Source: Rhizaria sp. SCN 62-66 (taxonomy: Eukaryota). From it: a DNA stretch of 40,635 nucleotides. The position numbers and the translations under genes are program-made. The notes below the pieces were generated by a model. That model was not told the DNA's origin and ran no database searches. It worked only from the letters and a program-made list of their open reading frames with translations. This document shows positions 11,094 to 40,635 of this stretch, one piece after another. Within the stretch, counting starts at the first letter, position 1. Each line of letters starts with the position of its first letter. Location of the stretch: NCBI GenBank assembly GCA_001724265.1, contig MEDY01000287.1, forward strand, positions 1 through 40,635, in the 5' to 3' direction.

Positions 11094-11127
<34 letters not shown>

Positions 11128-12584: not shown

Positions 12585-12615
<31 letters not shown>

Positions 12616-19600: not shown

Positions 19601-22600
19601 TACGACTGTGCGGTCGGCACGGCGGCGGCCGGCGCACCCGCCGCGGCGCCCAGCAGCACGGCCGCGAAGGGCGACGGCGCGGGCCGGGTCACGACCTCGG
19701 CCAGGTCCACGGGCCGCGTGTACGCGGGTTTGTCGTGGAGGAACAGCGGCGGCACGGCGGCCTTGGTCGCGAGCACCGTCGGCGCCGGCAGAGCCTCGGC
19801 GGCGGCGGCCGCCGCGGCGGCCTCGGCGGCGGCGGCTTCTTTCTCTTTCTCGCGCTCCTTGCTGTCCTTGCCGGTCAGCCGCGCGCGCAGCGAGCTCAGG
19901 AACCTGCCCCCACCGCCGCCGCTGCTACTGCTAGAGCTGCTGGAGCTGGAGCTCGGCACAGGGGCGTTGCTGGAGCTCGCGGGCGGGCTGCCGAGCGGCG
20001 AGAGCAGAGACTGCTGCTGCTGGAGCTCGTCCTCAGCGTCCTGGGGGTCAAAACGGTCGCTGGCCGAGGGAAACACCGTCACGGCTACGGGCCCGCCCAG
20101 CGCGATCGACGGCACCGCCTTGCCACTCGCGCTCGCGCTCGCACTCGCATTACCAGCAGTGGCGGCGGGGGCGGCGACGAGGGCGGCAGCGGGGGCGGGG
20201 GCGTCCTGGTAGGGCAGGTTGTCCTCCGGCATCAGCGTGAGACACATCGCGCCGTCGCGCCCCGCGTCCTCACTATGGGGCGCGGCGAGCCCGAAGGCCA
20301 CGGCGGCGACACACAGCGCGGTGCAGCCGGCGTTAACTAGCGCGGCCACCGCGCCGCCCTCGGCCGCCGCGCCCGCGGGGACGGGCAGCCCGAGGCCGGC
20401 GCACAGCCACGCCACGGGCGCCCAGCAGCCACCGACGCTCCCACTCGCACCCGCAGCAGCAGCAGCAGCAGTAGCAGCCGCGTTGACGGCGGCGGATGCG
20501 GGCGTGCTGAGGACGAGCGTGCGCGCGAGCGGCGCGGACCGCGCGAGCGCGCCGGCAATCATGGCGTCGATCGCGGCGCACGACGGCGCGGCATCGGGCG
20601 GGGCCGTGGCGCTGGCGAGGTGGAGCAGCGCGAGCCGCTGCGCGCACGGACACAGCACGGCGGCGTCGGGCGAGGGCGCGGCCAGCGCGCAGCCGTGGGC
20701 GCCGCAGCCGGCGGGCGTGGCCGCACTGCGCGGGCGCGCCGCCGCGGCGGTCGTCGCGGCACTCAACGCGGCGGCCAGCGAGCGGTAGATGAGTCCGCGC
20801 AAGAACAGCGGGGCGAGTGCGCTCACTTCGTCCCCCGTCACGGCGACTCCGGAGCCCGATGCCACGCCGGGCGCAGCCGACACAGCCGTCGCCGATACCA
20901 CCGCCGTCGTCGCCGACACGCTGCAGCGCGCGGCGGCGCGGGCGGCGGCACGCGTGACCGCGCGCGCCGTAAGTTCCGCGTTGACGGCGCGCGCGACGGA
21001 CGCGAACGCGGGGCCCAGCAGCGTGTCGCGAGGCGTGCCCGACTCGCGCTGCTTGATGAGGTTGATCGCGTGCACGCGCCCGCCCGGGAACGCGCGGGTC
21101 AACCGCGCGAAGTGCGCGACCGCGGTGCGGGCCAGCGAGGCCGGGCTGAGCGCGTTGGGCGCGATCTTGACCTCGGGGGCCATCTTGAGCGCCGAGCCCT
21201 GGCGCCAGAAGAACGGGATCGAGCCGCGGAGCAGCGTGAAGCTGGCCCAGCGCCAGCGCGCGCGGCTGCGGGACGCCGGGGCCAGCAGCACGACCTCGGT
21301 CTCGACCTCGTTGGCGACTGAGCCCGGCCCGCCGCAGAGCGCGTCCCGCAGCGCGCGGCACGGCTGGTCGCCGCGGGGGCCCGCGCCGCACTCGCTGCCG
21401 CAGACGACGCAGTCACCGGCGACTGAGCACGCCGCGGCGTCGGCGTCGGGGTTCGCCGCCACGTCCGCGCCCAGCAGCCCGCCGTCGGCGCCCGCGCCGT
21501 CCTCGGGAGTCGCGACGTTCGCGCCCGTGTTGTTAGAGTCGGCGGCGCCGGGGCCCGTGTAGCCCTTGATGGCGCGCGCCATGCGCTGCGCGGCCGCGGG
21601 CGTGGGCGCGTGAGCGTCGCGCTCCGACGCCGCGGCCGAGGGCGGGGACGCCGCAGTGGCGCCGCGCCGCAGGTACCGCGTGCCCGCGAACGCGCGCGAC
21701 CGGCGCGACAGCACGACGAGCATCGCGGCGGGGCTCGAGCGGTCGCCCTCGTGCAGCCGCATGGCGCACGCAAAGCCGCAGACGGCGGCGGGCACCGTGG
21801 CCAGCGCCCACCGTTGCGCCGCCTCGCGCAGCGCCGCGGACCGCGGGGAGGCCGCGAGGGGCGAGGACAGCGTAGCCAGCGGCAGCAGAGCGCGCGCGAC
21901 CTCGTCCGCCGCAACGTCGGGGAACGGGGCCGCGCCGAGCGCCACGCCCAGCGCGGCCAAGGCGGTGGCGGAGCGCGCGGGGGCCGGGCGGACGAACGCG
22001 GCCTCGAACGGGAGCGGGATGGACACAGCGTGGTCGGGCCGCGACAGCGCCGCCACGACGCTCGAGGGCATCGAGGGCGCAACGGTGGGCGCGCCGGCCT
22101 CGACCGCGGCGGCGGCGGCGGCGGCGGCGTTGACGTGCGCGGCGGCGACCGAGGCCGCAACGGCGTCGGCCCACAGGCGGTGCGCGTGGGCGTTCCACGC
22201 GTACCGGCCCGACGACGCGGCGACGGCGACGGCGCGGTCGGCCGCGGGCGCCGCCGCGGCCACGGCCTGGGTCTGCAGTGTGTGCGTGAGGTCGGCCGTG
22301 AACGACGTGTACACCGAGTGCGCGTAGGACGACGCCGAGTCCGACCGGAGAGCGGACAACGCGCGGTCTGAGGCGTCTAAGTGGTAAGTGATGTCGCCGA
22401 CATCTGGGAACAGCGACACGGGCGGCGGCGGCGGGGGCGCGGCGCCGCTGCCGCTACTGCTGCTGCCGCCGCCGCTGCCACTGCCGCTGGCAAACTGCTG
22501 GTGCGCCTGCAGCAGCGTGCGCTCATACTGCGGGTGCGGGACTGGCACGAAGACAGTCTTGTCGACGCGCAGCACCGGCGCGAGCGGCAGCGCCATGATG

Positions 22601-23349
22601 GGCGACGCGGAGTCGATGTGGCGCACGGACGAGGCGTGGGCCAGCGCGGCGCCGGCGGGCATGACGGCAACCTGCGAGACGTGCGTGGCGAGCACGAGCG
22701 TGGGGCGCGGCAGCGTGAGGAGGCCGAGCAGGGCGCGCGCGCGGAGCTCGCGCTCGAGCGGCGCCGCGACAGCCGCGATGGCGGACCGCACGCGCGCGCG
22801 CACGGACGCGAGCGTCGGGTAGCGCGTCGCCACGGGGCTCGCGTTCACCGCGCTACTGAGGTGCACGTGGCCAACGCTGTTGTCGGCGGCGGCGGTGGCA
22901 GCGGAGGAGGAGGAAGACGTGTTGGGAAACGCGAGGCCGTCGATGCGGACGCGAATCTCACCGGGGAGCGTGCGGTTGAGGATGAGCAGCGTGTAGCCGG
23001 CGGCCGTGACGGCGGGGCCCTCGTCGGTACCAAACTTCTCGCGGTCCTTGTCCTGCGACGAAGACGACGAGGACGAGGAGGAGGACGGCGACGCAGACGC
23101 GGCAGCAGCGGCGGCCTCGGGCCCGTTGCTGGGGGCGAGCGGCTCGGTGCGCGCGAGGGCGAGGAAGAGAAACGGTTTCGTCTCCCACAAATACACAACG
23201 TCGCACGACGTCTGTGCGTCGACGGACCACTCGTGCGCGATGGTGGCCTCGACGTCGGGCTCGTTGGCGTTGAGGTCCAGCACACGGCGCAGGAGGGCGC
23301 CCTCGGTCAGGGCGTCATAGGGGAATAGCGGTTCCGTCGAGGAGCTCAT
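16681..23349 (-). CDS. FIG4: FIG4/Sac3-like PI(3,5)P2 5-phosphatase (Sac domain), 2222 aa, with large low-complexity insertions
   Basis: SRRSRAFAGTRYLRRG, GSVANEVETE, RGSIPFFWRQ, INLIKQRE, catalytic QRGVVRVNCVDCLDRTN (CX5RT), GDRIAVQYAGS and KRYYRNNVTD..KQ. The last two and NLxKxRE are FIG4-type features. Confidence 0.87.
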   Translation of the reverse strand: MSSSTEPLFPYDALTEGALLRRVLDLNANEPDVEATIAHEWSVDAQTSCDVVYLWETKPFLFLALARTEPLAPSNGPEAAAAAASASPSSSSSSSSSSQDKDREKFGTDEGPAVTAAGYTLLILNRTLPGEIRVRIDGLAFPNTSSSSSAATAAADNSVGHVHLSSAVNASPVATRYPTLASVRARVRSAIAAVAAPLERELRARALLGLLTLPRPTLVLATHVSQVAVMPAGAALAHASSVRHIDSASPIMALPLAPVLRVDKTVFVPVPHPQYERTLLQAHQQFASGSGSGGGSSSSGSGAAPPPPPPVSLFPDVGDITYHLDASDRALSALRSDSASSYAHSVYTSFTADLTHTLQTQAVAAAAPAADRAVAVAASSGRYAWNAHAHRLWADAVAASVAAAHVNAAAAAAAAVEAGAPTVAPSMPSSVVAALSRPDHAVSIPLPFEAAFVRPAPARSATALAALGVALGAAPFPDVAADEVARALLPLATLSSPLAASPRSAALREAAQRWALATVPAAVCGFACAMRLHEGDRSSPAAMLVVLSRRSRAFAGTRYLRRGATAASPPSAAASERDAHAPTPAAAQRMARAIKGYTGPGAADSNNTGANVATPEDGAGADGGLLGADVAANPDADAAACSVAGDCVVCGSECGAGPRGDQPCRALRDALCGGPGSVANEVETEVVLLAPASRSRARWRWASFTLLRGSIPFFWRQGSALKMAPEVKIAPNALSPASLARTAVAHFARLTRAFPGGRVHAINLIKQRESGTPRDTLLGPAFASVARAVNAELTARAVTRAAARAAARCSVSATTAVVSATAVSAAPGVASGSGVAVTGDEVSALAPLFLRGLIYRSLAAALSAATTAAAARPRSAATPAGCGAHGCALAAPSPDAAVLCPCAQRLALLHLASATAPPDAAPSCAAIDAMIAGALARSAPLARTLVLSTPASAAVNAAATAAAAAAGASGSVGGCWAPVAWLCAGLGLPVPAGAAAEGGAVAALVNAGCTALCVAAVAFGLAAPHSEDAGRDGAMCLTLMPEDNLPYQDAPAPAAALVAAPAATAGNASASASASGKAVPSIALGGPVAVTVFPSASDRFDPQDAEDELQQQQSLLSPLGSPPASSSNAPVPSSSSSSSSSSSGGGGGRFLSSLRARLTGKDSKEREKEKEAAAAEAAAAAAAAEALPAPTVLATKAAVPPLFLHDKPAYTRPVDLAEVVTRPAPSPFAAVLLGAAAGAPAAAVPTAQSYLGSTVAYHGYDFLSRRGAKDHNKTSRPADNGNLVGSQSSVSMSGSSTANIPEGSGSGVGGSNTNSPSASPAVGALASPLSPPPIAGVGSSGSSAAALTDGSTNNAGGAVGPRSRLLPSPTVVSELRRLLTPLVAEVGVSAPMGSAADPMLAACSRAMAGAPEPPSGPAASAPARPLWQRGVVRVNCVDCLDRTNIALFVAAKAGLAQAFQALGLSATPLDALLALAVDATAAASVAASRAAAGSPAETTAQWDGHWARDATARAVLCQLALAHGQRNPSRLPAHLSAALQRALSANGDRIAVQYAGSAAMHRETILLAEDDAPWMAAVCAPLRRTAGPGWEGVLGAGAAPDLAVVSPAAVGGPGLAVPAAQPTPQDDAVSPQPTATTNSSKGGIGNSFMRAFSNFKNSSSSSSSSSSSSSNASSSASVSVSTAAAAASAAAAAPAAPAQSLSVTGALVAPQDDDFDDFGDAAAHSGAAGNSVNGGGSAGANGNASAAAAAAGYDEDADEYDTASRGPSRFAKVSGIAMNAFTAAKRYYRNNVTDGVKQQALSLTTGAFVPGLRPVRGQPTPVRGPQGGALAPLASLRNPAALPAPLLAWMRRLSSPPVAQLPLAPRAPVWADDGGYPVDAGDAELLWRAVAIARAASLARAALAAAADAASTAPDGGSRSAVVLLAPGAVKVDAAAVSALWVRLQHWCELSSLSLPWTPLARVVVRPLPLPAAVVEIRAQVHKRERARSLAAIVPLPTEFTVTAPVSSAQPPAGSPPAAAAAAAATSAARGGGNAGAALAGWHCARVWLTLPPPIQAQLAAALGAASVNANSYNNSANNGAIVGSGAVSFSLAPPAAIAAQTHHAQRSTVLSAAAQPQSQLPSQAQAPAVPARPSRPHGHGHGGPAVTATTANNGFAPAAAAGEPQIDLLSLGLEVQDTPAPAPAAAAPTTAAAAAAATAAAASDEAAAAQKDGDAFAALGW

Positions 23350-24342: not shown

Positions 24343-24967
24343 TCAAATCACCTGCTTCTCATTCGCATCCACAGCCTTAGCAGCAGAGGACTCGGTTGCA
24401 GACGCAGTTGCAGCGGTAGCAGCGTCAGCGTCCGCACCTGCCTCTTCAGCAGCGTCCCCGCGCGCGGCAGCCCTGCGCGCCTTCTTGCGGTGCAGTTTTG
24501 ACTCGTTATGCGCACGCAGACTCGCCTCAGTGAGCAGCTCCCGATCACACAACTCACACCGCACCTTCACAGACCGACGAGCCGCTCCGCTCCCCTCTCC
24601 TGCTGCGGCTGCGGTGGTGAGGAGAGCGCGGGGCACGACGAGATGGCGGCGCAATACAGGGGGCAATGAGGCCAACGCGGCGGTGACGGCTGCGCCGGTC
24701 AGGCAGCCACCGTCATCGTCTTCGTTACCAGTCTCGATGTTGCCGCTGTTGCTGCTGTTGTTGCCGGTGTTGGCGGCTGCGGTAGCGGCTGAAGGGTCTG
24801 AGAGGGTGACTGTGACGTCGTCTAGTGCCGTCGTCGCAGTTGCAGCTAATGCTGTTGTCGGTGTTTGGATGCGAGGACGCTTGACGACAGCAGAAGCATC
24901 GGCGTCGCCGACGTCAGCAACAGCAACAGACTCTGCCATTGTCACAGTCGCAGCCTGACGTTGCTGC

Positions 24968-24998
<31 letters not shown>

Positions 24999-27297
24999 GC
25001 TGCAGTCGTGGTGGTGCTGACGCGAGAAACATCGACACCAGAGCCACAGCAGGGTCGCGAACAGTCGAGTCCCACCGAGATTGCGACTGCAACTGGGACT
25101 CAGTCTTATCATCTGATTGCGACTGCGACTGGGACTTAGCTGCAGCCTCAGCAGCCTCAGCGGGCGTCTCAAACAGCTTCACAGTCGTCTTATCCACACC
25201 CGCCACAGAGCTTACACTCATGCTAGAGTGTGCACGATCATTACCACTGCCAGTGCGCCTGCCCACGGTCTGAGACTGTGTCCTTGACTGTGAATGGGAC
25301 TGCGGTTGCGCCGCTGTCGTTGGAGCAGGCTTGTCAACGTCGGAGGAATCGATCCTGACCGCAAGCAACGGCCACTCATCTATCGCTCCACTCGCTCTCT
25401 CGCCGGCAGTCGCACTCGCGGCGTCCCTCGCACTCGCCCGTGCGCGGTCACTGACACTCTCGCTGGCGCTCTCATTGACACTGTCTGCCGCTGCCGCGTT
25501 AGAGTGTGTGTCGGCCAGCGCCAGCGCCAGCATCCGCGCGAGCGCAAGCGGGCCCTTGCCAGTGAGCGTCCTGCGCAAGCGTGCGCGGATTGCCTTGGTC
25601 TGCACCGCGGCGTACGCGGTGGTGGCCTGCTCAAGCACGCGCGCGCACGAGACGGCGCACGAAAACAGCTCCGCGTCCGCATCCGTGCTCACTGTGTCGC
25701 TCGTAGTGGGAGCACTGCCATTTGCAGTCGCATGCGCGTTCACTCTCGCGATATCGCTGGCGTCAGAAGAAGCGGTCGTATTAGGAGAAGCGAGGAATGC
25801 GCGTGCCAGCGTATCACAACGCTCTGACCGCCCCTCCTGTTCCATCGCAGCGGCCCACCAGCCCTGTGACGCTGTATCTTTAGCTCTCGCTGCATCGCCG
25901 CCAGTATCGTCAATACTACGCACCGTGCCAGCGAGCGCGCGCTTGTGGAGCCACGGGAGAAACTCCTTCAGTCCGATGGCCTGAGCAGCGCCGACCGTGG
26001 GATCGATCGCCGCCGCGAGCGCCGCCACAGCCGCGGGGCCACCGTGCAGACGCGCATCGCCGTTGTCGCCACTGGCGCTGCCGGTGCTGCTCTTGTTGCT
26101 CTCGTTGCGAGTGTTGCTGAGGGCAGAGGGGGCGAGCAAAGCGGCCGCCGCGAGGACCTCCGTCAACGCACCGTCACGCGTTGCCCTGCCGCGATCAGTG
26201 CCCATATTCTCTGTTGTCGCTGTCGCTGGCACGTGCGCGCTTGGAGCTGTAGCTTTGTCCGCCGCGGCGGTGGCGGCTGCGGCTGCGGCGGTGGCGGGGC
26301 GTCCGGCGAGCATGGCGGCGACGCGGGCGCGCGCTCGGCGACGCAGAGCGGGCGCGTCGGCTGACAGCCACAACAGCAGCGGACGGTAGCCGCGGCGCAG
26401 GCGGCCGTCGTCGAAGCCGCCGTAGCGCGAGAGCAGCGCGGACGCGGTGCCCTCGTCATCAACGTTGTCATCGTCGTCATCGTCATCGTCGTCGTCGTTG
26501 TCGTCGTCGTCATCATTGGTGGCCTCAGCCGTCGCCGTCGCTGTCGTCATCGTTGTTGTTGTTTCAGGCGCAGAAGCGTCCCCCGTATTTGCATGAGCGC
26601 TGGCAGAGGGGACCGTGAGCGGGATGTTGTTCGCGAAGCAGTGCGCGGCAAAGGCAGAGTGCAAGCGGACACCGCGCGAGGCCTCGGACACGGTCTCGAG
26701 TGCGCGGCGCAGTTTGCGGCTGTTGCGCGGGGGAACCTGTGCGGCACGCGCGGGGTCGAGCGTACGCAATTCAGTGAGCAACTCGTCAACCGCGCGCGGA
26801 CGCAGGAACGCCGCGTATGCCGCCGCGTCGAAGGGCAGCTTGTTCTGGCGCGACGAGTCGTTTAGCTGTTGGTCAGCAGAATTATTATCGCGTGTGTAGG
26901 CCAAGTGTGCGAGGTAGGACTCGAAGAGCAGGCCCTGAATCCAGTAAAATGTGCCGCCACAGACAATAGGCAGCTTGCCACGCGCAGTCACGTCAGCGAT
27001 GCACGCGTCGGCAGCGCGGATGAAGGACAGGACGTCGTAGGCGCCGTCGGTGGGCTCGCACGAGACGAGGTGATGTGGTGCGCGCGCCAGCTCTGCGGGG
27101 CTCGGCTTCGCGGAGAGCTGGTCCAGGCCGCGGTAGACCTGCATCGAGTCCGCAGAAATGACTTCGCCGTTAAGCGCCTCGGCCAGCTCGAGCGCCAGAC
27201 GCGTCTTGCCAGTCGCGGTCGATCCAGTAATCACCACCAGCGGCACATTGCCAGCTGGCTTAGGACTGCAGTTGTTGTCGCGCGCAACATCCGTCAT
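24343..27297 (-). CDS. TRIT1: tRNA dimethylallyltransferase (MiaA/Mod5/TRIT1) with C-terminal zinc finger, ~984 aa, with insertions
   Basis: P-loop ITGSTATGKT, GEVISADSMQVYRGLD, PHHLV, LPIVCGGTFYWI, RKLRRALE, QAIGLKEF, and C-terminal CELCDR...HNESKLHRKK finger. First ATG is at 27295-27297 (the ORF track starts at a GTG). Confidence 0.92.
24960..25003 (-). repeat. Coding CAA/CAG polyglutamine tract in the TRIT1-like insert
   Basis: (TGT)n/(TGC)n run on the + strand, encoding a Q run on the - strand. Confidence 0.9.
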
Positions 27298-27986
27298 TGC
27301 GGAAATCAAAAGCACCACAAATAATTAAAAAAATCGACAAGCCAATCAAGATAATTCGCACTTCGTCTCTTGATCAACACATCTTAGTAACAACAGAAAT
27401 AGCAATCTCACCACAAACACCAAACATAGCGTCGCTCTGGCACGGTTCGTGAAAAATCGATGTTTGAATGAATTAGTGGTGGTGGCGAGCGCCAAGAGGT
27501 GGGAAGTGGTCTCCCACTCGACGACGAACAAATGTTCGAGAATTAGCCACAAAGACGTGCATAGAATGTGCCATTGTTGATGCAAATCAACACTGATAGC
27601 TCTCTTATGCTTTCAATTTTAATTTCAGTCATGGGCGCGCGCGGCTTATTTGTCTTCTGGAGGTTGTGCTGATTAGCTCGTCCTTGACGAGCGACGAAAA
27701 GTCTGCCGACCCAAAACTGGATTCAGCTACGCGGCCATTTCTGCCCCTAGAAGTCGGGATTGTCTCGTCTATTAATTAGTTTAGTCTTTCCACTTTAAGT
27801 TTCAAGCTATTTGGTCGAGAATTGTCGTCTTGGTCGCGTACATTCCTCTTTGACAAACTCTAACCGCCACTTTTTTCGGCGGGAAGGTCCCGTCACCTCT
27901 CATGCACCCCCCTTGGCTCACCTTTGCCCCCTCTTTTCACCCCCTGACCCCCCTATTTGCTTTTTTATTACACCCTCAGCTTAAAA

Positions 27987-29661: not shown

Positions 29662-30633
29662 TTAGACGTTGACGTCGAAGAGCACGGTGAGGAGGACGCC
29701 CGCGACATACGACAGCGCGGCCGCGAACGACCCCAGCCCGGCGATGACGAGGCCAGAACGCCACCAGTCGTCGCCGAGCTCGACGAGGCGCGCCTTGAGG
29801 ACGCCGAGGACGAAGAGAGTGAGGACGGTGAGGATGATGGACATGTTCATCTGCGCTGACGCGGAGACCCACTCGAGGCCCGGGATGAAGGTCAGAAAAA
29901 ACGGCAGCAGCGGGATGGAGCCGAAGACTGAGAAGGACACGCCGGTGACGACGCCGCTCTTCCACGGCTCCTCGTCCGGGTCCGGCGGCAGCAGCCGCAG
30001 CTCTTCGACCATCATGACGTCGAGGAAAGCTTCGGGGTACTTAGCGAGGATGGTCCAGATGCGACGCGAGTCCTCGGGAGAGATGCCGCGCTGTACGTAG
30101 AGCTCGATCATCTCCTCGACCTCCTGCTCCATCGACACGTGCATCTCCCAGGCTTCACGCTTGCGCTCGGAGTGGTAATTCTCGATCTCGGCCTGCTCGG
30201 ACAGCATGTCGCCGATGCCCATGCCGACGGCGTCCGACACGAGGTGGCAGATGCCGACGATGACGATAACGATCGGCGCGAGGTTGGCGCCCGCGACCGA
30301 GGTGACGGTGGCGAACGTCGTGATGATGCCGTCGACGCCGCCGTAGACCAGCGCCTTGAGGTACGGACCGGCGGCGTTGCCGTGGGCCTCTATCTGGCCG
30401 CCCGCCTGGCGCTGCGCCGCGTGGTACGCCAGACTGGCCTCAATGTCGCCGGCCTTAAAGGCCTCGCGCGCAGACTTGGCGACAATGGGCGCAGTTGTGG
30501 AGGACGAGGGAGACTTGGAGGAGTTGGAGTTGACGACGCCCATTTCGGTCTCGGACGAGGCCTGGAAGCCGCCGGAGGCGCCGCTCATCAGAGGCGTCGT
30601 CTCCCGCGACGGAGAGGAATCTAAGTGAGACAT
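29662..30633 (-). CDS. VIT1: Vacuolar iron/manganese transporter, VIT1/CCC1 family (323 aa)
   Basis: YLKALVYGGVDGIITTF, DAVGMGIGDMLS, Glu-rich metal-binding loop ERKREAWE..EVEEMIELY..MMVEEL, SFSVFGSIPLLPF, LFVLGVLKA; five hydrophobic helices. Confidence 0.94.
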   Translation of the reverse strand: MSHLDSSPSRETTPLMSGASGGFQASSETEMGVVNSNSSKSPSSSTTAPIVAKSAREAFKAGDIEASLAYHAAQRQAGGQIEAHGNAAGPYLKALVYGGVDGIITTFATVTSVAGANLAPIVIVIVGICHLVSDAVGMGIGDMLSEQAEIENYHSERKREAWEMHVSMEQEVEEMIELYVQRGISPEDSRRIWTILAKYPEAFLDVMMVEELRLLPPDPDEEPWKSGVVTGVSFSVFGSIPLLPFFLTFIPGLEWVSASAQMNMSIILTVLTLFVLGVLKARLVELGDDWWRSGLVIAGLGSFAAALSYVAGVLLTVLFDVNV

Positions 30634-32014: not shown

Positions 32015-35000
32015 ATGCAGTCCCCCAGTACCCCCTGGGACGCTGACGGGCCTGCCGTCGACTTCGGCAAGGCCCCATCTGGCGCGCAGTTCAACGCCGC
32101 CGCCGTCGGGTCCGCCTCGCGCCGCGACGCTGCGAGCGGCACGTACCAGGACGCCGTGCGCGCCGCCGTGGCCTCCCTCTTTACGCAGCTTGCCGAGGGC
32201 ACGCCCCCCGCGGTGTCCCCGCGCCGCGTGCTGGCGCACCTGACCCGTCTGGGCCTGCTGGAAGACGATCCGCGCGCGCGGCACACCATGACAGCCCTCC
32301 GCGCCGCGCAGGCCCCCCTGACTCAAGACGCCCTGCTCGCCGTCGTGCGGACCGACTTCACCGTGCTCAAGCTGCTCGTCGGCGACGTTGCCGTGGCCGA
32401 CTTCCCCGCCTTCACGCGCCGCGTCGAAGCGCTCTTCCACTGGGCCGCGCGCGACGCCAGCGGTAACGTCGCGACGTATATCCCCCAACTGGCCAAAGTC
32501 GACCCTGAACAGTGGGGGCTCGCCGTGTGCACGGTCGACGGCCAGCGCGCGCGCTTTGGCGACGCCGCGACGTACTTTTGCGTGCAGTCCTGCTCCAAGC
32601 CCGTCACGTACATGGCCGTGGCGGAGGAGCGCGGCGGCCGCGAGCTGCATCGGTTCGTCGGCCGCGAGCCCTCGGGCCGCGGGTTCAACGAGCGCGTGCT
32701 CCTGCCCGGCGGCAAGCCGCACAACCCGATGATCAACTCCGGCGCGATCATGACGATGTCGCTGTTCGAGCCCGCGCGCGACGAGTCGGCGCGCTTCGAC
32801 GCGCTCCTCGCCCTGTGGTCGCGCCTCGCGGGCGGCGTGCACCGGATCACCTTCGACAACGCGACGTACCTTTCGGAGCGCGCCACGGCGGACCGCAACT
32901 TCTCGCTGGCGTACATGATGCGCGAGGAGGGTGCGTTTGCCGACGGCAGCAAGATGAAAGAAGCGCTGCAGCTCTACTTCATGGCGTGCTCCATCGAGGC
33001 CACGTGCGAAGTTATGGCCTTGGTCGCGGCGACGCTGGCCAACGGCGGCGTGCATCCTCTGACCGGCGACCGGATCTTTTCCCCGCCCGTTGTCCAGGCC
33101 TGTCTGTCGCTGCTGCTCAGCTGCGGCATGTATGACGCCTCCGGTGAGCACGCCTTCAAGGTCGGCTTCCCGTCCAAGTCCGGCGTCTCGGGCGTCCTCA
33201 TGACCATCGTGCCCGGGCGCCTCGGCTTTGCGTCCTGGGCGCCGCGCCTCGACCGGCTCGGCAACAGCGTTCGCGGCAGCCGCTTCTGCCGCGCGTTTAG
33301 CGAGCGCTTCGACTTCCAGCGCTTCCGTAGGCTCACCTGGCCGCGGCCCGTCATGAGCGCCGTCGCCCTCGCAAACGGCACCACAACCGCCAGCGGGTCC
33401 TCGTTAGTGTACGCCGGCTCCGCTGCCAGTCAATCCTCTTCCTCGGCTTCCGCCGCGGCCGCCGCGATTGGCGGCGTGACCGCCGTGGCGGCGCTGGTCG
33501 GCGCGCTGCACAGTCACGGTCACCACGGCCACGGTCGCGGTCACGGGTATAGGCTGCACGGGTCCGGAGCGGCAGTGCGCCGCAGTCGCCGCCGCATCAC
33601 GACTGCTGCTTCTGCTGCGACCAAAACCGGCGCTGGCGGCGTTGCGCTGCCGCCGCGCCGGGGCAGCGCGTCGTCGAGTGCCGGGGACTGCGCCGGCCCT
33701 GGCTCCGACCCCTGCTCTGACGACGTCGACGATGACGGGTGCGACGACACGACTAACGCGGACACCAACGCCGTTGACGTTACCGCGTGCGCCGCTATCG
33801 CCGCGGCCAACGGCAACGGCAACGTGGAGAGCTGCGACGAAGACGACGACGACGACGATGACGAGGCGGGTGTTGCGTGCGCGGCCGAGCTCGAGGCCCG
33901 CGCGCGCACCGCCGCCGAGGAGGCGTCGCTGCTGTTGTGGACGGGCGCGGCCGACAACGACGCGCTGCTCATCCGCCTCGCCGCTGCGCGCGGCGCGCGC
34001 GTGGACGCCGCCGACTACGACGGACGCACCGCCCTGCACCGCGCCGCCGCCGCAGGCCACGCCGGCGCCGCCGAGGAGCTGCTGCGGCTGGGCGGCGCCG
34101 CGGCGGCCGCGCGGGACGCCCGGGGCGAGACGCCTGCCGACGCCGCGCGCCGCCGCGGGTTCGTGGCGCTCGCGCAGAGGCTCGATGAGGCCGCCGCCGA
34201 GGCGGCCGCGGAGGCGTCCGCGAGCAACAGTAACGCCAACGCTAACAACAACAACACGACAAGTACCTCAGAACCCGTGACCGCGAGTTCAAGTGCGGCT
34301 GTGAGCGCGAGTGCAATAAATGCGATGAAGGCGATGAGCTGCCACCCCGCCGACGCCGCCTGCGCTGCGGTCACGTTGGCTCCCGAAGAGGCCCTCGCCG
34401 CGCGGCTGCGACAGGCGCTCGACCAAGAAGGCTGCGGCGGCGTGCCGCTGGGCCGGCTGCTGCGCGTGCTTGCCCGCTCCGGCCTGGCCGCGGGCGGACT
34501 GCCGCAGCGCGTGCTCCGGGCCGCGCGCGCTGCGGGCGCCGTATGGGATGTCCCCGCCGCGGCCCCCACCCATAATGCGCCGGCGGGGGCGGCCGTCATC
34601 GCGGACGAGTGGCAGACACTGCTGTCGACGCCGGGCGGCGCGGAGGCGCTTGACCGGTGCGCGCTGTCGCCCGCTGCCATCGCCGCCGTCGTCGCCGTCG
34701 CGCCAGAAGGCATCGCCGCGCTGGCAGGGTCGGCCGCGGTGCCCGACTGGCCAGCCTTCGCGTCCACCACGGAGCGGCTCGTCGAAGCGGTCGACTTGCA
34801 GACGGAGCGCCACACCGCCGCGGCGGCCGCCGCGCGCGCGCACCGCGGCAGCGTTAGCACTAGCAACAACGACAGCAGCTGCGGCGGCAACAGCGCGGCG
34901 CACGTGCCGGTGGACGACGACGACGACGACGCGGCTGCGGCGGTGCACGGCTCTCCGCTCAACCTCGCGGCCACGCTCGACGGGCGCGCGCTGGGGAGCT

Positions 35001-38000
35001 CCGCATTCGGCCCGCTGCCCGCCGCCGCCGGCAGCCTCCTCGCCCCCGGGGCCGGCGCGAGAGGCGGCGGCCCGGGCGCGGTCGCGGTCGCGGCGCTGCG
35101 GCTGGGAGCGCTTGCGACGGGACACGCCGCGACACCGTTTTTGCCCACCGCGCGCGCCAGCGCCGTGGCCGCGGCGGCACTGGCCGCGCAAGACCTCACT
35201 CTGGCCACGTCTGGTGCGTCACAGACACTGGGCGGTGACGCGTCGCCGCTGCGTGCGCCCGCATTCATTCCCGCGCGCTCGCTCCTGCGCAGCGCCAGCA
35301 ACAGCAACTTCAACAGCAGCAATCTGAACAACACGCTTGCTGCTGCTGCTGCGAGCTCCAACTCCAACACTGCGACTGCTGATGTTGTTGTTGCCGGCAC
35401 CGAGATTGTCGACGGACTGAGCGAGAGCGACCGCGACGACGCCCCGCAGCGCCGGCGCAAGGGCTCGTTGTCTGCGCTGGCCGAGGTGACGCCGTTGGGC
35501 ACACACCAGGTCGCGTTTCGGCCGCCGCGCCGCACGCGCGCGCGCGCGACGGGGCGCGTAGGCAGGCTTGCGCGCATCCGCAGCCAGCGCCCCGGCGCCG
35601 ACGACGACGCTGGCGTGGACGGCGACGGGTTCGCTGGCGACGGCATCGCCGGTCGTGGGCCCGACGGCGACGGCGACGGCGACGACGATGATAATGACGA
35701 TGATGACGGCGAGGAGCACGGCTCCGTATCTGCGTCTGACTACGAAGACTATAGTGAGCCGATGCTGCCGCCGTCCGCCGCCGTCGCCGCGTCGGTCCCC
35801 GTGGCCGCGGACGCGCTCGCTGCCATCCCGGAGGCCTCGCCCACCGACAGCACAGCAGCCGCAGACTTCAACACGGCCGCTCTTGCCACTGCCACTGCCA
35901 CTGCAACCGCGACCGCGACTGGGAGTGCGACTGGGAGTGATGCGCCGCTGCTGCTGCTGCCTTTGCCCGGTGCGGCCGTGTCGCCCGTTGTTAGGCTCGC
36001 GGCCGCCGCGCCCGGGCCCACATCCGCCGCGGCCGCCGCCGCGCTCCACACCGAGGTTACTGCGCCGCTCACTCAGTCCCTCTCTGCGCACAAGGCCCAG
36101 CAGCACGGCGGCGACACCGACGCGCAGCTGGGCCTGGGCGTGAGCGTGGTGACCGTGAGCGGACAGCAGCTCACGGTCCCTCCGCGGCCACTGGGCGCCG
36201 GCGCCGCGCCGCGCGTGGCGGCCCCGCCGCGCTGGCCGCTGCGCAGCCTCTCGCTGCTGGCGCTCTATGTCTCCGCGGCGGAGCTGCTGGGCCCGCGCGC
36301 CGTGCACCGCCGCGTCGGCCGCGAGCCCTCCGGTCGCGGTGTGTTCGACCTGTGCCTCGACCACCGCATGCGCCCGCACAACCCGTTCCTCAGCACGGGC
36401 GGCATCGTCTGCTCGGCGCTGCTCTGTGGCGCGCTTGCGCTCGACCCGGCTGCCGCGCTGTCCGCCGCCTCGCCCTCCGCCGCGCACTTGCCGGGCGGCC
36501 CGGGGTTACGGCTGTCGGCGCGGTCAGTCGCGGCGCACGCGGCCGCACGCGTCGCCGCCTGCCAGGGCCCCGGCGCCAGCGCGCTCGCCGCGCTCCTCCG
36601 CTTGCCGCTCACCGACTCTGGCTCCTCTAACTCTGGCTTTTGTTTTGTGACTGCGGCTGCGGCGACTGCGGCGACGGCTGCGAGCTCAGCCCACAGCCTC
36701 GGCATCGTGCCCGCCGGCGCGACGACGCTGGGCGAAGTGCTGGCGCTGCGCGCGCTGTCACTGCTGCGCGTGGCGGCCGACGTGGACGCGCAGGCCGAGG
36801 GCGTTGCGCAGTGCGACGCTGCGGCCGCCAGCGCACGCGCGCCCCCGTGTTCCTGCGTGTCGGCCGAGTTCAGCCTCGAGCTCGAGTACGGCGCTGTCGC
36901 CGCGCCGCTGCTCTATGTGCTCGCACTGCTTCACGGAATGACCGCCGGCGCGATCCCCGCCGCGTTTTCCGCCGCCGCCGCCGCCTCCGCTGCGACAACA
37001 CCGACTGACGCCGCGAGTACGCATGCGTATGCGCAGGATCCTTCAGTGTGCGGTCCGCACAACCCGCGCGCGGCCGCCGGTGTGTCGCGCGAAGCCCTGG
37101 CCGCAATGCGCAGCGCGTCTGACCGCGACTACTGCCTGGCATTCATGGTCAAGGACGCGGGGTCGATGCCGCCGTCGGTGCGCGCGCACAGGGACGTGCG
37201 CAGTCTGCTGCTGCTCGTCCGCATTATCAGTGCTCTTGAGGCAGACACGGACTCGGGCGCGAACCTCGCCGCCACGCTCGCCAACGGAGGTATGTCGTTG
37301 AGAGCACCTCTCGCCTTAACATCGCTGTTGAATGTGTGTTAACGTTAACGGTCTGTATACTTTAATCTCATCAAATCTCATCAACTTCCATTTCCTTATC
37401 TCTTGTTTGTCGCTTTGCAGGCGTGAACCCCGTGACGCAGCTGCGCGTGGTGTCCGAGACGACAGTGCGGCCGACTCTGGCGCTCATGTCGTCCTGCGGC
37501 GCCGCCACTGCCTCCGGCGAGTTTGCCTTCCACGTCGGTCTCCCGGTCAAAACCTCTCTCCATGGCGCGCTCATCACCGTCTCCCCGGGCCTGTTCGGCG
37601 TATGCACCTACGCCCAGGACGGCAGTCTCTGCGAGTCCAACTCCAACGCCAACAGCAGCGGCGGCGACGACGACGGTGACGCTCACGGCAGCGGCGGCGG
37701 CGGCGGCAAGCCCAGCGGGCGTGCGGACACGAGCGCGGTGACCTCTCCCGCGGCCGCGCCGGGCATGCGCTTTAGCCACACGTTCGCGCGCACTTTCTCG
37801 CTGCACTGCTTCGCGCTGGCCGCGACGGCGCAGGGCCAGAGCGCCGTGCGCGACCCGCGCCGCGGCCGCGGCTATCGGCGCGGGCTCGTCCTGCGGCTGC
37901 TGCTGGCGGCCGGCCGCGGCGACCTCTTCGCTGTGCAGTCTGCGCTGGCCGCGCGGGTGAGCGTGGACGCGCACGATGACGCGGGCCGCTCCGCGCTGCA

Positions 38001-38301
38001 CGTGGCCGCCGAGAACGGCCGCTCTGCAGTCGTCGACGCGCTGCTCGCGTGGGGCGCCAACCCCGCCGTGCGCGACGACAGCGGGGAGACGCCTGCCGAC
38101 GCCACGGCGCGCGCGCTGCGGCAGGCCTCCGCTGCCACTGCAACCGCAGCCGCCGATGTGGCTGTGGAGAGCAGTGGCAGTAATAACGGCGCAGGACATG
38201 GCGGTGCGCGCGATACGCTGGCCAAGGCGCGCGAGCTTGTGCTGCGCCGTTTCCGTGATCTTGCGCACAAGACAGCCAGTGTCCCCGCGCGCAAAGCATA
38301 A
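32015..38301 (+). CDS. GLS: Glutaminase (GLS-type) with ankyrin repeats, tandemly duplicated; join(32015..37289,37421..38301), 2051 aa
   Basis: Unit 1: GLLEDDPR, VATYIPQLAKVDP, FCVQSCSKP, VGREPSG, PHNPMINSGAI, ERATADRNFSLAY, ATLANGG, SCGMYDASG, SKSGVSG, GNSVRG, then ankyrin DYDGRTALH. Unit 2 repeats these blocks in degenerate form and ends in ankyrin DDAGRSALHVAA..G. Confidence 0.92.
37290..37420 (+). other. 131-nt spliceosomal intron in the second glutaminase unit
   Basis: Donor GTATGT at 37290, pyrimidine tract, acceptor TTTGCAG ending 37420. Splicing yields ATLANGGVNPVT, matching unit 1 ATLANGGVHPLT. Confidence 0.92.
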
Positions 38302-39140
38302 GATAGATAAAACATGCGTTGATTGATGCGATTGCTCTACCCTTGCTGTTATACCGTGTCCTCACTCACACAAAGTGTTATCTCGGACAATCGTTGTCTT
38401 TCATTTTTTGAATATATTACAACACTGCTACTTATTTTGCCAAAGAAATTACTCATGCAAATACATTTATCTTGATAAGCTTCCTCTTAAAACTTACACA
38501 TGCATGATCTTACGTACGCTTCGTCATGGTCACGCGTACTGATACCGGTTTGCCGCTCCCGAGAATACCAGTGGACATCGCAAAGTATGCAAAAGTAGGA
38601 AATATAAGCCGATTTTTTATTGGTTGAAATCGTCACTGTCAAACGTGAGAAGCAACTGCATGAGTCATGGACATAACCTTGGGGATCAATCAACCGGCAA
38701 GGCGAGCGTCACAGACCAACACAAATGCAATTCACGATGTAGCTTAAACATTATAAGTTGTGTTTGCTTTTAAAGAAACGACTTGTTGATTCACAAGCAA
38801 AATATGAACGCATTAGTGACACTGGCCGTGTCAAGATGCGATCATACGGATAAAAAACAAAAGAGAGTATTATGCATACAGCTTGTCCTCCATGTCAAGT
38901 TGCGATCTTATGCGAGCAAGCGCTAAAGAGATCATAACCAGGCATATTCAACACAGAGCTGCACTAAGATGCATCATAACCAAGCCAAAATACGTCACCA
39001 AGTGGGCGCAAAGCTAGTTTGTGAGCAAGCGTAGAAAACACCACGCCAGTGTGTGAAAGAAACGAAAAAGGGTGAGATAAACAAAGCTAAATGCGAAACG
39101 TTGCAACAACGCGCACTAGTTGTGTTCAAAGAGTTTTTAA

Positions 39141-40635
39141 TTAGAAGCCGACAACCTGGGCAATCAGCGTATCAGGGTACTTGCGACGGATGAGCTTGGA
39201 GCTCTCAGCGTAGCAGAAGTAGACAATCCAGGCGACAAACGGCACAGCCCAGACGTGGCCGGGGATAGTGCCAAAGCCGAATCCCTCAGAGTTGATGGTG
39301 GGGATAAAGATGAGGCAGAACATGATGATGAGCTCGATTACAACGCCGCCGAGAAGGTTCGTATTGTCGAGGAAGCCGTTTTGCCAGAAGGGCGTGAGGC
39401 GCGTCTTGCAGAAGAAGATGTTGCTGAACTGCGACAGAATGAGCGTCATCCAGTATGCGACCTGCGCGTCGGCCAAAACGTCGAGCTGGGCCTGGTCGTT
39501 GAGCAAGCGGCCCGCATCGGAAATCATATCGGGCGCGCCTTCGCGCCAGTACGTCGTCGCACTGTTCCACAGCCAGGAGATGGGGATGTCGTGGTAGATA
39601 AAGACTAGGAAGTAGGAGGTAAAGCACGCGATCATAACAAGAAAGCCCATAGTGAGGTACGAGTACCCCATTAGACGCCCCGTCACCAGGCGGTCACGAT
39701 TGACGTCGCGCGGCGGCACGTTCATGACGTCTGCCTCGGGTGGCTGGTACGCCAGCGCGACTGAGGGCGCCAGCTCCGTGCCGCAGTCAATTGCGAGCAC
39801 GGCCATTGACCCCAGCGCGAGCGGGATGCCGAAGAGTACGCGCGCGAGCGTCGGTACAACTTCGGCGGTCGAGTGCGTCAGAGTGTACGCAACGGCCTTG
39901 GCAAGGTTGGAGAAGAGCAGGCGGCCCTCCTTAATGCCCGCGACGATCGCGGCGAAGTCGTCGTCGAGCAGGATAATGTCGGCGGCCTCGCGCGCGACGT
40001 CTGAGCCGGAGATGCCCATGGCGACGCCGATGTTGGCCTTCTTGAGCGCGGGCGAGTCGTTGACGCCGTCGCCGGTTACGCAGACGACGTGCTTGAGGCG
40101 TTGCATGTGCTCGACAATCTGCAGCTTCTGCTGCGGCGTCGTGCGCGCAAACACGATCTCGGGCCGCTGCAGGTTTACAGTCCACTGCTCCTCGGTCCAG
40201 TGGCGGATGTCCGTGCCCGTTGCGACCAGCGCCGTCTGCGGCACGACAACGACGTCAACGCCAGCGGCCTCGGGAACAGCGCTCGGAAACGCATCCTCGT
40301 CTTCGTTAACTGCATCGCTCGAAGCGGTACGCCCAACCAGCGGCGTCTTGGAAGCCACAGGTAACATGGCGGGCGCGCCGAACTTGCGGCTCTGCGCGGC
40401 AGCGTCGGGCCCGCCGGCGGCGGCCTCAGCGTCGACCTCGTCCTGCGTGCGCAGCGTGATGATGCCGACCTGGCGCGCGATGGCCTTGGCCGTGAGCGGG
40501 TGGTCGCCCGTCACCATCACCACGCGCACGCCCGCGGCGCGCACGGCGCGCACGGCCGCGGGCACCGTCGCCTTGGGCGGGTCCGCCAGCGAGAGCAGCC
40601 CGACGAAGGTGAAGCCCTCGGCCGGCAGCACGTGC
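39141..40635 (-). CDS. P-type ATPase, P2C (Na+/K+- / H+/K+-like) alpha subunit, C-terminal part (5' truncated by the window end)
   Basis: FVGLLSLADPPK, VVMVTGDHPLTAKAIARQVGII, EIVFARTTPQQKLQIVE, VTGDGVNDSPALKKANIGVAMGISGSDV, EGRLLFSNL.K..AYTLT, PPRD...DRLV, CKTR; all are P2C-typical. Confidence 0.93.
   Translation of the reverse strand, partial: HVLPAEGFTFVGLLSLADPPKATVPAAVRAVRAAGVRVVMVTGDHPLTAKAIARQVGIITLRTQDEVDAEAAAGGPDAAAQSRKFGAPAMLPVASKTPLVGRTASSDAVNEDEDAFPSAVPEAAGVDVVVVPQTALVATGTDIRHWTEEQWTVNLQRPEIVFARTTPQQKLQIVEHMQRLKHVVCVTGDGVNDSPALKKANIGVAMGISGSDVAREAADIILLDDDFAAIVAGIKEGRLLFSNLAKAVAYTLTHSTAEVVPTLARVLFGIPLALGSMAVLAIDCGTELAPSVALAYQPPEADVMNVPPRDVNRDRLVTGRLMGYSYLTMGFLVMIACFTSYFLVFIYHDIPISWLWNSATTYWREGAPDMISDAGRLLNDQAQLDVLADAQVAYWMTLILSQFSNIFFCKTRLTPFWQNGFLDNTNLLGGVVIELIIMFCLIFIPTINSEGFGFGTIPGHVWAVPFVAWIVYFCYAESSKLIRRKYPDTLIAQVVGF

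What the first reader, a model, noticed from the sequence alone, without database searches (positions are those of the whole stretch)
32015..38301. Single-chain glutaminase-pseudoglutaminase: active unit fused to an apparently dead duplicate
Seen: the whole [EF-hand-like helical domain - glutaminase - ankyrin] unit occurs twice (unit 1 ~32200-34190, unit 2 ~34380-38120). Unit 1 to unit 2: VADFPAFTRRVE to VPDWPAFASTTE; YIPQLA absent; QSCSK (S..K 32588-32599) to RSLSL (36245-36256); VGREPSGRG identical; PHNPMINSG to PHNPFLSTG; ERATADRN to MRSASDRD; SCGMYDASG to SCGAATASG; SKSGVSG to VKTSLHG. Known: glutaminases need the SxxK dyad plus those Tyr/Asn/Glu residues, and GLS is activated through dimer/tetramer assembly. 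Inference: unit 2 has lost the Lys, Tyr, Asn and Glu yet keeps structural motifs and an open frame, so it may be a retained pseudoenzyme forming an intramolecular pseudo-dimer, acting as an allosteric regulator or ligand sensor. I do not know of this architecture being described.
Basis: partly seen in the sequence, partly recalled or inferred. Interest (0 to 1): 0.72.

Follow-up and report, generated by a model that had tools for sequence, protein, structure and literature searches.

The report
Glutaminase fused to dead duplicate
A microbial eukaryote gene encodes one long protein with a working-looking glutaminase followed by a diverged copy that has lost its catalytic residues, an arrangement that is real but turns out to be common in protist sequence databases, although I found no paper describing it.

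Summary
One two-exon gene (32015-37289 + 37421-38301, 2051 aa) carries two [helical - glutaminase - ankyrin] units. Unit 1 matches human GLS at E 2e-99 with every key residue. Unit 2 is a true homologue (Pfam Glutaminase E 2.9e-14; BLASTP to unit 1 E 4e-14 and 4e-11). It keeps 32 of 48 family-invariant columns, but the SxxK Lys, both Asn, the Glu and all three Tyr are replaced. It also carries two low-complexity inserts of about 400 and 220 aa. The frame has 0 stops in 998 codons, against 6-21 in the other five frames, and GC3 is high throughout. Polymorphisms in the folded parts of unit 2 are 5 synonymous to 0 non-synonymous.

The architecture is not unique. Of 153 GLS-like database proteins examined, 64 are tandem. 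In 44 of those 64, one intact unit is paired with a unit lacking the SxxK Ser and/or Lys; named examples are Aphanomyces, Andalucia, Rhodelphis and Gymnodinium. The nearest relative, P0002, has the same tandem but its unit 2 keeps the eight alignable key residues, so the loss here is lineage-specific.

Four literature searches found no description. The proposed partner or regulator role is inference, because the complex prediction gave no answer. RNA contigs cover both units but show no spliced junction.

The parts
32015..37289 (+). Exon 1 of the tandem glutaminase gene (aa 1-1758 plus one base)
   Evidence: ORF with no stop. GC3 is 0.76-0.98 in this frame throughout. Unit-2 part: 0 stops in 998 codons against 6-21 in the other five frames.
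37290..37420 (+). Intron, 131 nt, GT..AG, AT-rich
   Evidence: Sequence; 39-47% GC. The spliced protein aligns to the glutaminase profile across the junction without a gap. No spliced RNA junction was seen, and one RNA-library contig (37304-37763) holds part of the intron.
37421..38301 (+). Exon 2 (aa 1759-2051 plus stop): C-terminal third of the unit 2 glutaminase fold, a linker, the ankyrin repeats and a tail
   Evidence: Pfam Glutaminase E 2.9e-14 and Ank families. GC3 is 0.87-0.93.
32144..32464 (+). Unit 1 N-terminal helical (EF-hand-like) domain, aa 44-150
   Evidence: Aligned to the N-terminal domain of human GLS chains. PF17959 EF-hand_14 E 8.4e-4, below the cut-off.
32462..33325 (+). 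Unit 1 glutaminase domain (aa 150-437), all key residues present; SxxK at 32588-32599
   Evidence: Pfam PF04960 E 1.8e-113, full length 1-286. Human GLS E 2e-99. Signature YSKNENYYSG.
33947..34180 (+). Unit 1 ankyrin repeats (aa 645-722)
   Evidence: Pfam Ank_5, Ank_4, Ank_2 and Ank.
34664..34813 (+). Unit 2 remnant of the helical domain (aa 884-933, includes VPDWPAFASTTE)
   Evidence: BLASTP to unit 1 E 0.001. Own-profile stretch with E 0.015.
34916..36136 (+). Insert 1: about 400 aa of low-complexity sequence between the lid remnant and the first strand of the unit 2 glutaminase fold
   Evidence: No Pfam family. P0002 has a long insert at the same place.
36137..36436 (+). Unit 2 glutaminase fold, part A (aa 1375-1474): RSLSL (36245-36256; Ser kept, Lys to Leu), GREPSGRG, PHNPFLSTG
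36437..37105 (+). Insert 2: about 220 aa, Ala/Ser-rich, inside the unit 2 glutaminase fold
   Evidence: Gap between profile stretches 1408-1474 and 1698-1823.
37106..37614 (+). Unit 2 glutaminase fold, part B (aa 1698-1823, interrupted by the intron): MRSASDRD, ATLANGG, SCGAATASG, VKTSLHG
   Evidence: Profile stretch E 8e-35. BLASTP to unit 1 E 4e-14.
37897..38100 (+). Unit 2 ankyrin repeats
   Evidence: Pfam Ank_2 E 4e-07 and Ank_4 E 7e-07. BLASTP to unit 1 ANK E 7e-08.

Best explanation
This is a nuclear gene of a GC-rich microbial eukaryote. It encodes one 2051-aa chain with two GLS-type [helical - glutaminase - ankyrin] units.

Shown: unit 1 has every residue of an active serine-lysine glutaminase. 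Unit 2 is an old duplicate that keeps the fold-defining motifs but has lost the general-base Lys, the essential Tyr and the substrate-contacting Asn, Glu, Asn and Tyr. It is swollen by two low-complexity inserts, yet its frame is kept open. The same tandem exists in the nearest database relative, whose unit 2 keeps the eight alignable key residues (the lid Tyr is not alignable), so catalysis was lost in this lineage.

Inferred: unit 2 is a retained pseudoenzyme that serves as an in-chain structural or allosteric partner of unit 1. It would take the place of the second subunit that GLS enzymes need, since GLS dimers are nearly inactive and activity arises on dimer-dimer contact. The protein would then have one active site per pseudo-dimer. 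It belongs to a widespread protist family of tandem glutaminases, for which I found no description in print, in which one unit is usually degenerate.
For: - Single chain: continuous ORF; GC3 highest in this frame all along; 0 stops in 998 codons against 6-21 in the other frames and 13.9 expected from composition. A separately assembled metagenome contig, L001, is collinear over 33384-38427 at 99.88%.
- Unit 1 intact: Pfam E 1.8e-113; GLS E 2e-99; signature YSKNENYYSG.
- Unit 2 homologous but dead: signature -SLSMDVATS. It keeps 32 of the 48 observed columns that are at least 90% conserved in 139 intact units, and the lost columns include all the catalytic ones.
- Roles of Lys289, Ser286, Tyr466 and Tyr249 come from passages of PMC10912226.
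- Constraint: polymorphisms against run contigs and L001 are 5 synonymous to 0 non-synonymous in the folded parts of unit 2, against 3 synonymous to 6 non-synonymous in linkers, inserts and tail.
- Family context: 64 of 153 proteins examined are tandem, and 44 of those 64 are intact plus SxxK-lost.
- Orthology: win_u1 with P0002_u1 has support 0.994, and win_u2 with P0002_u2 has 0.895.
- The dimer is nearly inactive and activation occurs at the dimer-dimer interface: passages of PMC13142944.
Against: - No evidence of any kind for a unit 1 - unit 2 contact, and no structure was modelled.
- The unit 2 branch is 2.8 times as long as the unit 1 branch (1.15 against 0.41), and it carries about 620 aa of inserts. 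That also fits relaxed constraint.
- The polymorphism sample is tiny: 14 sites, and 19 further differences were not shown.
- RNA contigs do not bridge the unit 1 / unit 2 boundary in the listed pieces. They show no spliced junction, and one contains intron sequence.
- 'Dead' is inferred from sequence, and the nucleophile Ser is still present.
- The key-residue list beyond Ser, Lys, Tyr249 and Tyr466 is recalled. Here it is supported only by invariance in intact units.
Confidence: 0.6

Rival explanations
1. Unit 2 is a decaying relic. After duplication it lost its function and now survives only as a tolerated spacer, or as a carrier of the second ankyrin module, with no specific partnership with unit 1.
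For: Long branch (1.15 against 0.41). About 620 aa of low-complexity inserts and loss of most of the helical domain. Neighbouring genes in the window are also long ORFs with few Pfam-matched stretches, so bloat may be tolerated genome-wide.
Against: The frame is open over 998 codons against 13.9 expected stops. Thirty-two of 48 invariant structural columns are kept. There are 5 synonymous and 0 non-synonymous polymorphisms in the folded parts. Degenerate units are retained in 44 of 64 tandem proteins from distant lineages, which argues for a selected role.
Confidence: 0.2
2. Unit 2 is a ligand sensor. It still binds glutamine or glutamate, or another small molecule, in the old pocket and passes that signal to unit 1.
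For: The nucleophile Ser is kept. Some other tandem proteins keep N, E, N and Y while losing only Ser and Lys, for example YHNNENYYA in P0008, P0014 and P0055 and YANNENYHS in the 600-660 aa group. Those units look like binding-competent pseudo-sites.
Against: In this window the pocket columns themselves are replaced: N to S, E to M, N to D, Y to V, Y to A. Glutamine binding in the old mode is therefore unlikely.
Confidence: 0.08
3. Unit 2 is still an enzyme, either a glutaminase with a non-canonical base or a hydrolase of another substrate that uses Ser1411.
For: Ser1411 is retained and the fold motifs are retained.
Against: Lys to Leu removes the base that deprotonates the Ser, and the Tyr466-equivalent is Ala (roles from PMC10912226 passages). 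Seven of the eight aligned key columns are changed.
Confidence: 0.05
4. The gene model is an artefact. Units 1 and 2 are separate genes or transcripts, or the protein stops at 37342 because the intron is not removed.
For: No RNA junction 37289/37421 was listed. An RNA-library contig starts inside the intron at 37304. No listed RNA contig bridges 34048-34521.
Against: There is no stop or AT-rich gap between the units. The profile alignment is seamless across the GT..AG splice. Exon 2 has coding GC3 and Pfam matches. Transcriptome-derived proteins of Rhodelphis, Palpitomonas and Gymnodinium carry the same tandem.
Confidence: 0.05

Closest known systems
Human GLS (KGA/GAC) and GLS2 mitochondrial glutaminases
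   Same: Unit 1 aligns from the N-terminal helical domain through the whole catalytic domain at E 2e-99. It has the same Ser-Lys dyad, lid Tyr and Tyr466-equivalent, and C-terminal ankyrin repeats as in KGA and GLS2.
   Different: The human enzymes have one unit per chain and assemble as homodimers, tetramers and filaments. Here a second, catalytically degenerate unit is in the same chain. Reading the alignment by eye, the unit 1 activation loop has Glu where GLS has Lys320. No mitochondrial presequence was assessed.
Database tandem glutaminases of protists, for example Aphanomyces invadans XP_008864740.1 'glutaminase A' (P0015), Andalucia godoyi ANDGO_01371 (P0008), Rhodelphis marinus (P0007), Gymnodinium smaydae (P0022), and unnamed P0002
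   Same: Two GLS-type units in one chain, with one intact unit and one degenerate unit. In P0002 both units are sister to the window's two units, and it has an insert at the same place in unit 2.
   Different: The window's unit 2 is among the most degenerate, with 7 of 8 aligned key columns changed, and the most inflated. P0002's unit 2 still reads -SKNENYYS. In some members, such as Aphanomyces, the dead unit comes first. None of these is closer than 57% identity to the window's protein.
Pseudoenzyme partners of active paralogues, such as PDX1.2 with PDX1 (abstract of PMC6829848 in the listing) and trypanosomatid AdoMetDC or deoxyhypusine synthase 'prozymes' (recalled, not checked here)
   Same: A catalytically dead paralogue is retained together with the active enzyme and is proposed to regulate or activate it.
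   Different: Those are separate polypeptides with shown biochemistry. Here the pair is fused in one chain and the partnership is inference only.

Membership tests
GLS-type glutaminase (Pfam PF04960), unit 1 | Full-length match to the family profile above the curated cut-off | tested here: met
   378.9 bits against a cut-off of 27, profile positions 1-286 of 286. Human GLS E 2e-99.
GLS-type glutaminase, unit 1 | Ser-x-x-Lys dyad, lid Tyr (GLS Tyr249) and Tyr466-equivalent | tested here: met
   S192, K195, Y155 and Y373, aligned to the human residues. Signature. Roles from PMC10912226 passages.
GLS-type glutaminase, unit 1 | Glutamine-hydrolysing activity | not testable with these tools
   Needs an enzyme assay.
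Eukaryotic GLS architecture (EF-hand-like N-domain + glutaminase + ANK), unit 1 | N-terminal helical domain and C-terminal ankyrin repeats | tested here: met
   Ank_5 and Ank_4 are above their cut-offs. The N-domain aligns to human GLS chains, but PF17959 scores only 20.1 bits against a cut-off of 23.7.
GLS-type glutaminase (as an enzyme), unit 2 | Homology to the family profile | tested here: met
   The exon-2 piece scores 53.4 bits against a cut-off of 27. Own-profile stretches have E 1e-15 and 8e-35. GLS2 and GLS chains match at E 2e-08.
GLS-type glutaminase (as an enzyme), unit 2 | Ser-x-x-Lys dyad | tested here: not met
   RSLSL: the Ser is kept and the Lys is Leu.
GLS-type glutaminase (as an enzyme), unit 2 | Tyr466-equivalent and the Asn, Glu, Asn and Tyr columns that are invariant in 139 intact units | tested here: not met
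   Y to A, N to S, E to M, N to D and Y to V.
Pseudoenzyme (retained inactive homologue), unit 2 | Retained under selection rather than decaying | tested here: inconclusive
   In favour: open frame, 32 of 48 invariant columns kept, 5 synonymous to 0 non-synonymous polymorphisms in folded parts. But the sample is small, and no sister species was available for dN/dS.
Pseudoenzyme, unit 2 | Lack of catalytic activity | not testable with these tools
   Sequence inference only.
Tandem glutaminase with one degenerate unit (database family, not named in print as far as searched) | Two glutaminase units in one chain, one with all key residues and one lacking the SxxK Ser and/or Lys | tested here: met
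   Window: YSKNENYYSG and -SLSMDVATS. The same pattern is found in 44 of 64 tandem proteins.
Tandem glutaminase with one degenerate unit | Unit-by-unit relatedness to another tandem protein | tested here: met
   u1 with P0002_u1 has support 0.994 and u2 with P0002_u2 has 0.895 (FastTree).

The most novel reading that the evidence does not exclude
Across distant eukaryotic lineages, tandem GLS-type glutaminases have repeatedly converted one unit into a pseudoenzyme. That unit acts as an obligatory in-chain activator ('prozyme') of the other. A hard-wired heterodimer would then replace the phosphate- and filament-driven homo-oligomer activation known from animal GLS. The window's protein would be an extreme case, in which the partner has lost the whole pocket yet keeps the segment homologous to the activation-loop region (GREPSGRG...PHNP).
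Probability: 0.3. Interest if true: 0.65.

Novelty: new variant of a known kind. Interest (0 to 1): 0.45.

Why it matters
GLS glutaminases are heavily studied drug targets, and their activity depends on how identical subunits assemble. A natural single-chain pair of one live and one dead subunit would be a ready-made tool for asking what the second subunit contributes: interface, activation loop or allostery. It would also add a case of a dead duplicate kept in the same chain as the active enzyme. For this window alone the finding is one more, unusually degenerate, member of that set.

Tried and rejected
- Complex prediction of the unit 1 core against the two exon-encoded pieces of the unit 2 fold: score 0.01 against a mark of 0.34, verdict 'no answer'. 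The alignment I supplied was not used, and unit 2 had to be given as two chains because of the intron. This is evidence neither for nor against binding.
- RNA support: one run search and one laying of four runs. All four are short contigs. They cover both units but no listed piece bridges 34048-34521 and no 37289/37421 junction was listed (3 joints were not shown). Many listed 'joints' sit in low-complexity repeats with 19-26-letter sides and are likely other organisms. Uncovered intergenic bins in X1 are not used as evidence.
- The small shares in wastewater and biofilm runs (X2-X4) are not used for habitat.
- Search for closer relatives for dN/dS: the metagenome scan gave only one contig at 99.88% DNA identity. 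Protein searches with the whole ORF and with the unit 2 region gave nothing closer than 57%.
- No whole genome is held for this window.
- Earlier-findings look-ups were empty.
- Pasquali et al. 2017 (JBC), which I recall as a survey of glutaminase architectures, is not held. It may bear on the novelty claim.
- I did not run structure prediction.
- I considered a prokaryotic origin and rejected it. The reasons are the intron, eukaryotic neighbours (SPT16, myotubularin-like, SacI) and the GLS-type N- and C-terminal domains.
Full report
**1. What is in the sequence**

The region 32015-38301 (+) is about 70-76% GC, flanked by DNA of 27-50% GC. A 1775-aa ORF runs from the ATG at 32015 to a stop at 37340-37342. 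At 37289/37290 there is a GTATGT donor and at 37418-37420 a CAG acceptor. The 131 nt between them are 39-47% GC.

Joining 37289 to 37421 keeps the frame and gives a 2051-aa protein. The join reads ...AATLANGG|VNPVTQLRVV..., which mirrors ...ATLANGGVHPLTGDRIF... in unit 1. A glutaminase profile aligns across the join without a gap (stretch 1698-1823, E 8e-35).

GC3 is the highest codon-position GC in this one frame in every 300-nt window of both exons (0.76-0.98). No other AT-rich intron-like stretch lies inside the gene.

In the unit 2 part of exon 1 the frame has 0 stops in 998 codons. The other five frames have 6-21, and base composition predicts 13.9. So high GC alone does not explain the open frame.

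A metagenome contig (L001, 5044 bp) is collinear with 33384-38427 at 99.88%. It may, however, come from the same or a related sample.

**2. The two units**

- **Unit 1.** It matches Pfam Glutaminase over the whole profile (E 1.8e-113), followed by ankyrin repeats at aa 645-722. From about aa 28-55 to aa 439 it aligns to human GLS chains at E about 2e-99, N-terminal helical domain included. PF17959 (EF-hand_14) is only sub-threshold.
- **Unit 2.** It is recognisable in pieces.
  - The last helix of the N-domain (VPDWPAFASTTE; E 0.001).
  - A block at aa 1375-1474 holding RSLSL, GREPSGRG and PHNPFLSTG (BLASTP to unit 1 E 4e-11; GLS2 and GLS E 2e-08).
  - A block at aa 1698-1823 (E 2e-05 and 4e-14; Pfam Glutaminase 53.4 bits for the exon-2 piece).
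  - Ankyrin repeats (Pfam E 4e-07; E 7e-08 to the unit 1 repeats).
  - Two low-complexity inserts, about 400 and 220 aa, lie between these blocks. No Pfam family was found in aa 726-1362, the stretch that contains insert 1.

**3. Is unit 2 catalytically dead?**

I built a profile from five intact units and read ten columns for every unit. Unit 1 reads Y S K N E N Y Y S G. Unit 2 reads - S L S M D V A T S.

Passages of PMC10912226 say three things. Lys289 deprotonates the nucleophile Ser286. A Tyr466 mutant binds glutamine but cannot hydrolyse it. Tyr249 is part of the lid lock. The alignment puts these residues on S192, K195, Y373 and Y155 of unit 1.

The other columns (two Asn, Glu, Tyr, Ser) I recall from the GLS and YbaS literature as substrate contacts.

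Unit 2 keeps 32 of the 48 observed columns that are at least 90% conserved in intact units. The kept ones are the Gly/Pro/structural positions: EPSG, P-N-P, A..G..P, SG, G.P.K. Among the replaced ones are all the catalytic columns.

By eye, GGNSAAHVPVDD (aa 957-968) may be the remnant of SGNVATYIPQLA, with Tyr replaced by His. This is weak.

The conclusion is that the fold is retained and the active site is gone. This is inference from sequence, and the Ser is still there.

**4. Is unit 2 retained or decaying?**

For retention:
- The open frame.
- The conserved structural columns.
- The pattern of 14 polymorphic sites downstream of the unit 1 catalytic domain, seen in run contigs and L001. There are 5 synonymous and 0 non-synonymous in the folded parts of unit 2 (aa 1440, 1444, 1705, 1739, 1982). 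There are 3 synonymous and 6 non-synonymous in linkers, inserts and tail. By my own Fisher calculation p is about 0.03.

Against retention:
- The sample is small. Nineteen further differences were not shown, and low-depth contig differences can be errors.
- The unit 2 branch is 2.8 times as long as the unit 1 branch.
- No sister species was found for a real dN/dS.

**5. How common is the architecture?**

A scan of 1.84 billion cluster representatives with unit 1 gave 7266 hits at E up to 0.001. I examined the best 150 plus the 3 long hits, 153 in all, with my profile.

- 64 of the 153 have two or more glutaminase units.
- Of those 64, 44 have one unit with all observed key residues plus one unit lacking the SxxK Ser and/or Lys. 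In 38 of the 44 the degenerate unit has at least three changed key columns.
- 13 have an intact unit and no SxxK loss. Only P0001, P0004 and P0002, and partially covered P0010, look intact in both units.
- 7 have no fully intact unit.
- The degenerate unit can come second (35 'ID') or first (9 'DI').

Named members:
- Aphanomyces invadans XP_008864740.1 'glutaminase A' (dead unit first).
- Andalucia godoyi ANDGO_01371 'putative glutaminase 3'.
- Rhodelphis marinus.
- Gymnodinium smaydae.
- 'Eukaryota sp. TZLM1-RC' KAL0219874.1.
- Palpitomonas bilix, a cluster in which both units are intact.

Caveats. 'Degenerate' rests on my own profile alignment. Metagenome proteins may be fragments. The 150 are the top scorers, which favours two-unit proteins, so the share is not a frequency among all glutaminases.

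**6. Nearest relative and history**

In a FastTree of 211 unit cores (9 of 220 units were dropped for under 55% coverage), the window's unit 1 is sister to P0002 unit 1 (support 0.994). Its unit 2 is sister to P0002 unit 2 (support 0.895).

P0002 is 1624 aa, unnamed and AT-rich, with Asn-rich inserts. It has the same order of parts and a long insert at the same place in unit 2. Its unit 2 reads -SKNENYYS. The tandem therefore predates the split, and the loss of the catalytic residues is specific to the window's lineage.

Most strongly degenerate units fall in one loosely supported clade (0.48-0.89). I do not use this to count origins, because long-branch attraction is likely.

**7. Mechanism**

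Shown: one chain, one intact site and one degenerate homologous unit under at least some constraint.

Inference: unit 2 supplies in cis the partner surface that a second subunit supplies in GLS, giving a hard-wired pseudo-dimer with one active site. A regulatory role is possible. A glutamine-sensing role is unlikely here, because the pocket columns are replaced.

It is suggestive, but no more, that the best-kept stretch of unit 2 (GREPSGRG...PHNP) is homologous to the GLS segment that carries the activation loop. I read this homology from the alignments. The complex prediction gave no answer.

**8. RNA**

Two runs of one study hold about 54-55% of the sampled words: a poly-A metatranscriptome labelled activated sludge, and a run of unknown kind.

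Contigs of the RNA run lie on unit 1, the inter-unit region, unit 2 and exon 2. None of the listed pieces bridges the units, none shows the splice, and one (37304-37763) contains intron sequence. That could be pre-mRNA or DNA carry-over. Transcription as one spliced mRNA is therefore not shown.

**9. Literature**

None of my searches returned a paper on a GLS-type pseudo- or tandem glutaminase.
- 'glutaminase' + 'pseudoenzyme' gave 22 papers. The 15 listed, seen as titles and abstract openings, were all on other enzymes.
- 'two glutaminase domains' gave 1 paper, on GFAT.
- 'glutaminase' + 'tandem duplication' + 'catalytically inactive' + 'ankyrin' gave 1 unrelated paper.
- Six phrases such as 'tandem glutaminase' and 'pseudoglutaminase' gave 0 papers.

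The 2026 review PMC13142944 has no occurrence of 'pseudo'. Pasquali et al. 2017, which I recall as surveying glutaminase architectures, could not be read.

**10. Verdict**

The 'dead duplicate in one chain' reading is well supported by sequence, and the partner or regulator role is untested. The architecture is not new to databases, but I found it nowhere in print. The window's gene is an unusually degenerate and inflated member of the set. Interest is moderate.

Noticed in passing
P0031, P0033, P0040, P0049, P0052, P0058, P0062, P0075, P0111 (database proteins): A separate group of compact tandem glutaminases, mostly 600-660 aa and without matches to the N-terminal helical part of the profile. 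Their second unit reads YANNENYHS: Ser to Ala and Lys to Asn, but the pocket Asn, Glu, Asn and Tyr are kept. That looks like a binding-competent dead site. Their taxon is unknown.
   Followed up: no
window 32660-32730 (unit 1 activation-loop region, aa 216-238): Read by eye from the alignment, unit 1 has Glu where human GLS has Lys320. PMC10912226 passages describe that residue as the phosphate-contacting one. Unit 1 also lacks the Arg317/Glu325 pair, so phosphate activation may not apply to this enzyme.
   Followed up: no
window 163-31285 and 39141-40634: The neighbours are ordinary eukaryotic housekeeping genes. They are a pseudouridine synthase (163-1275 +), SPT16/FACT (3740-6952 -), a myotubularin-like protein of 2388 aa (7832-14998 +), a SacI-domain protein of 2222 aa (16681-23349 -), tRNA isopentenyltransferase (24343-27318 -), a VIT1 iron transporter (29662-30633 -) and a P-type cation ATPase (39141-40634 -, runs off the window). 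Several are very long ORFs with only short Pfam-matched stretches.
   Followed up: partly
window 33610-33890, 35858-36138, 37544-37824: Contig depth in all laid runs jumps at these stretches (up to 91-255). Many 'joints' with sides of about 20 letters start or end there. These are simple GAC/GCC-type coding repeats (poly-Asp, poly-Ala) shared with other organisms, not rearrangements.
   Followed up: partly
window 32740-32884: One contig in each of X1 and X5 differs from the window at 17-18 sites in about 150 nt. Of the 18 sites, 14 are synonymous. This suggests a second, related strain or species with a conserved unit 1 in the same study.
   Followed up: partly
P0003 (2252 aa): Another GC-rich, Ala-rich tandem glutaminase without ankyrin repeats. 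Its unit 2 has lost the Ser and Lys (GTIR in place of SxxK) and reads HGRDQTLGA. It lies in a different clade from the window's protein, so it looks like an independent example of the same outcome.
   Followed up: partly
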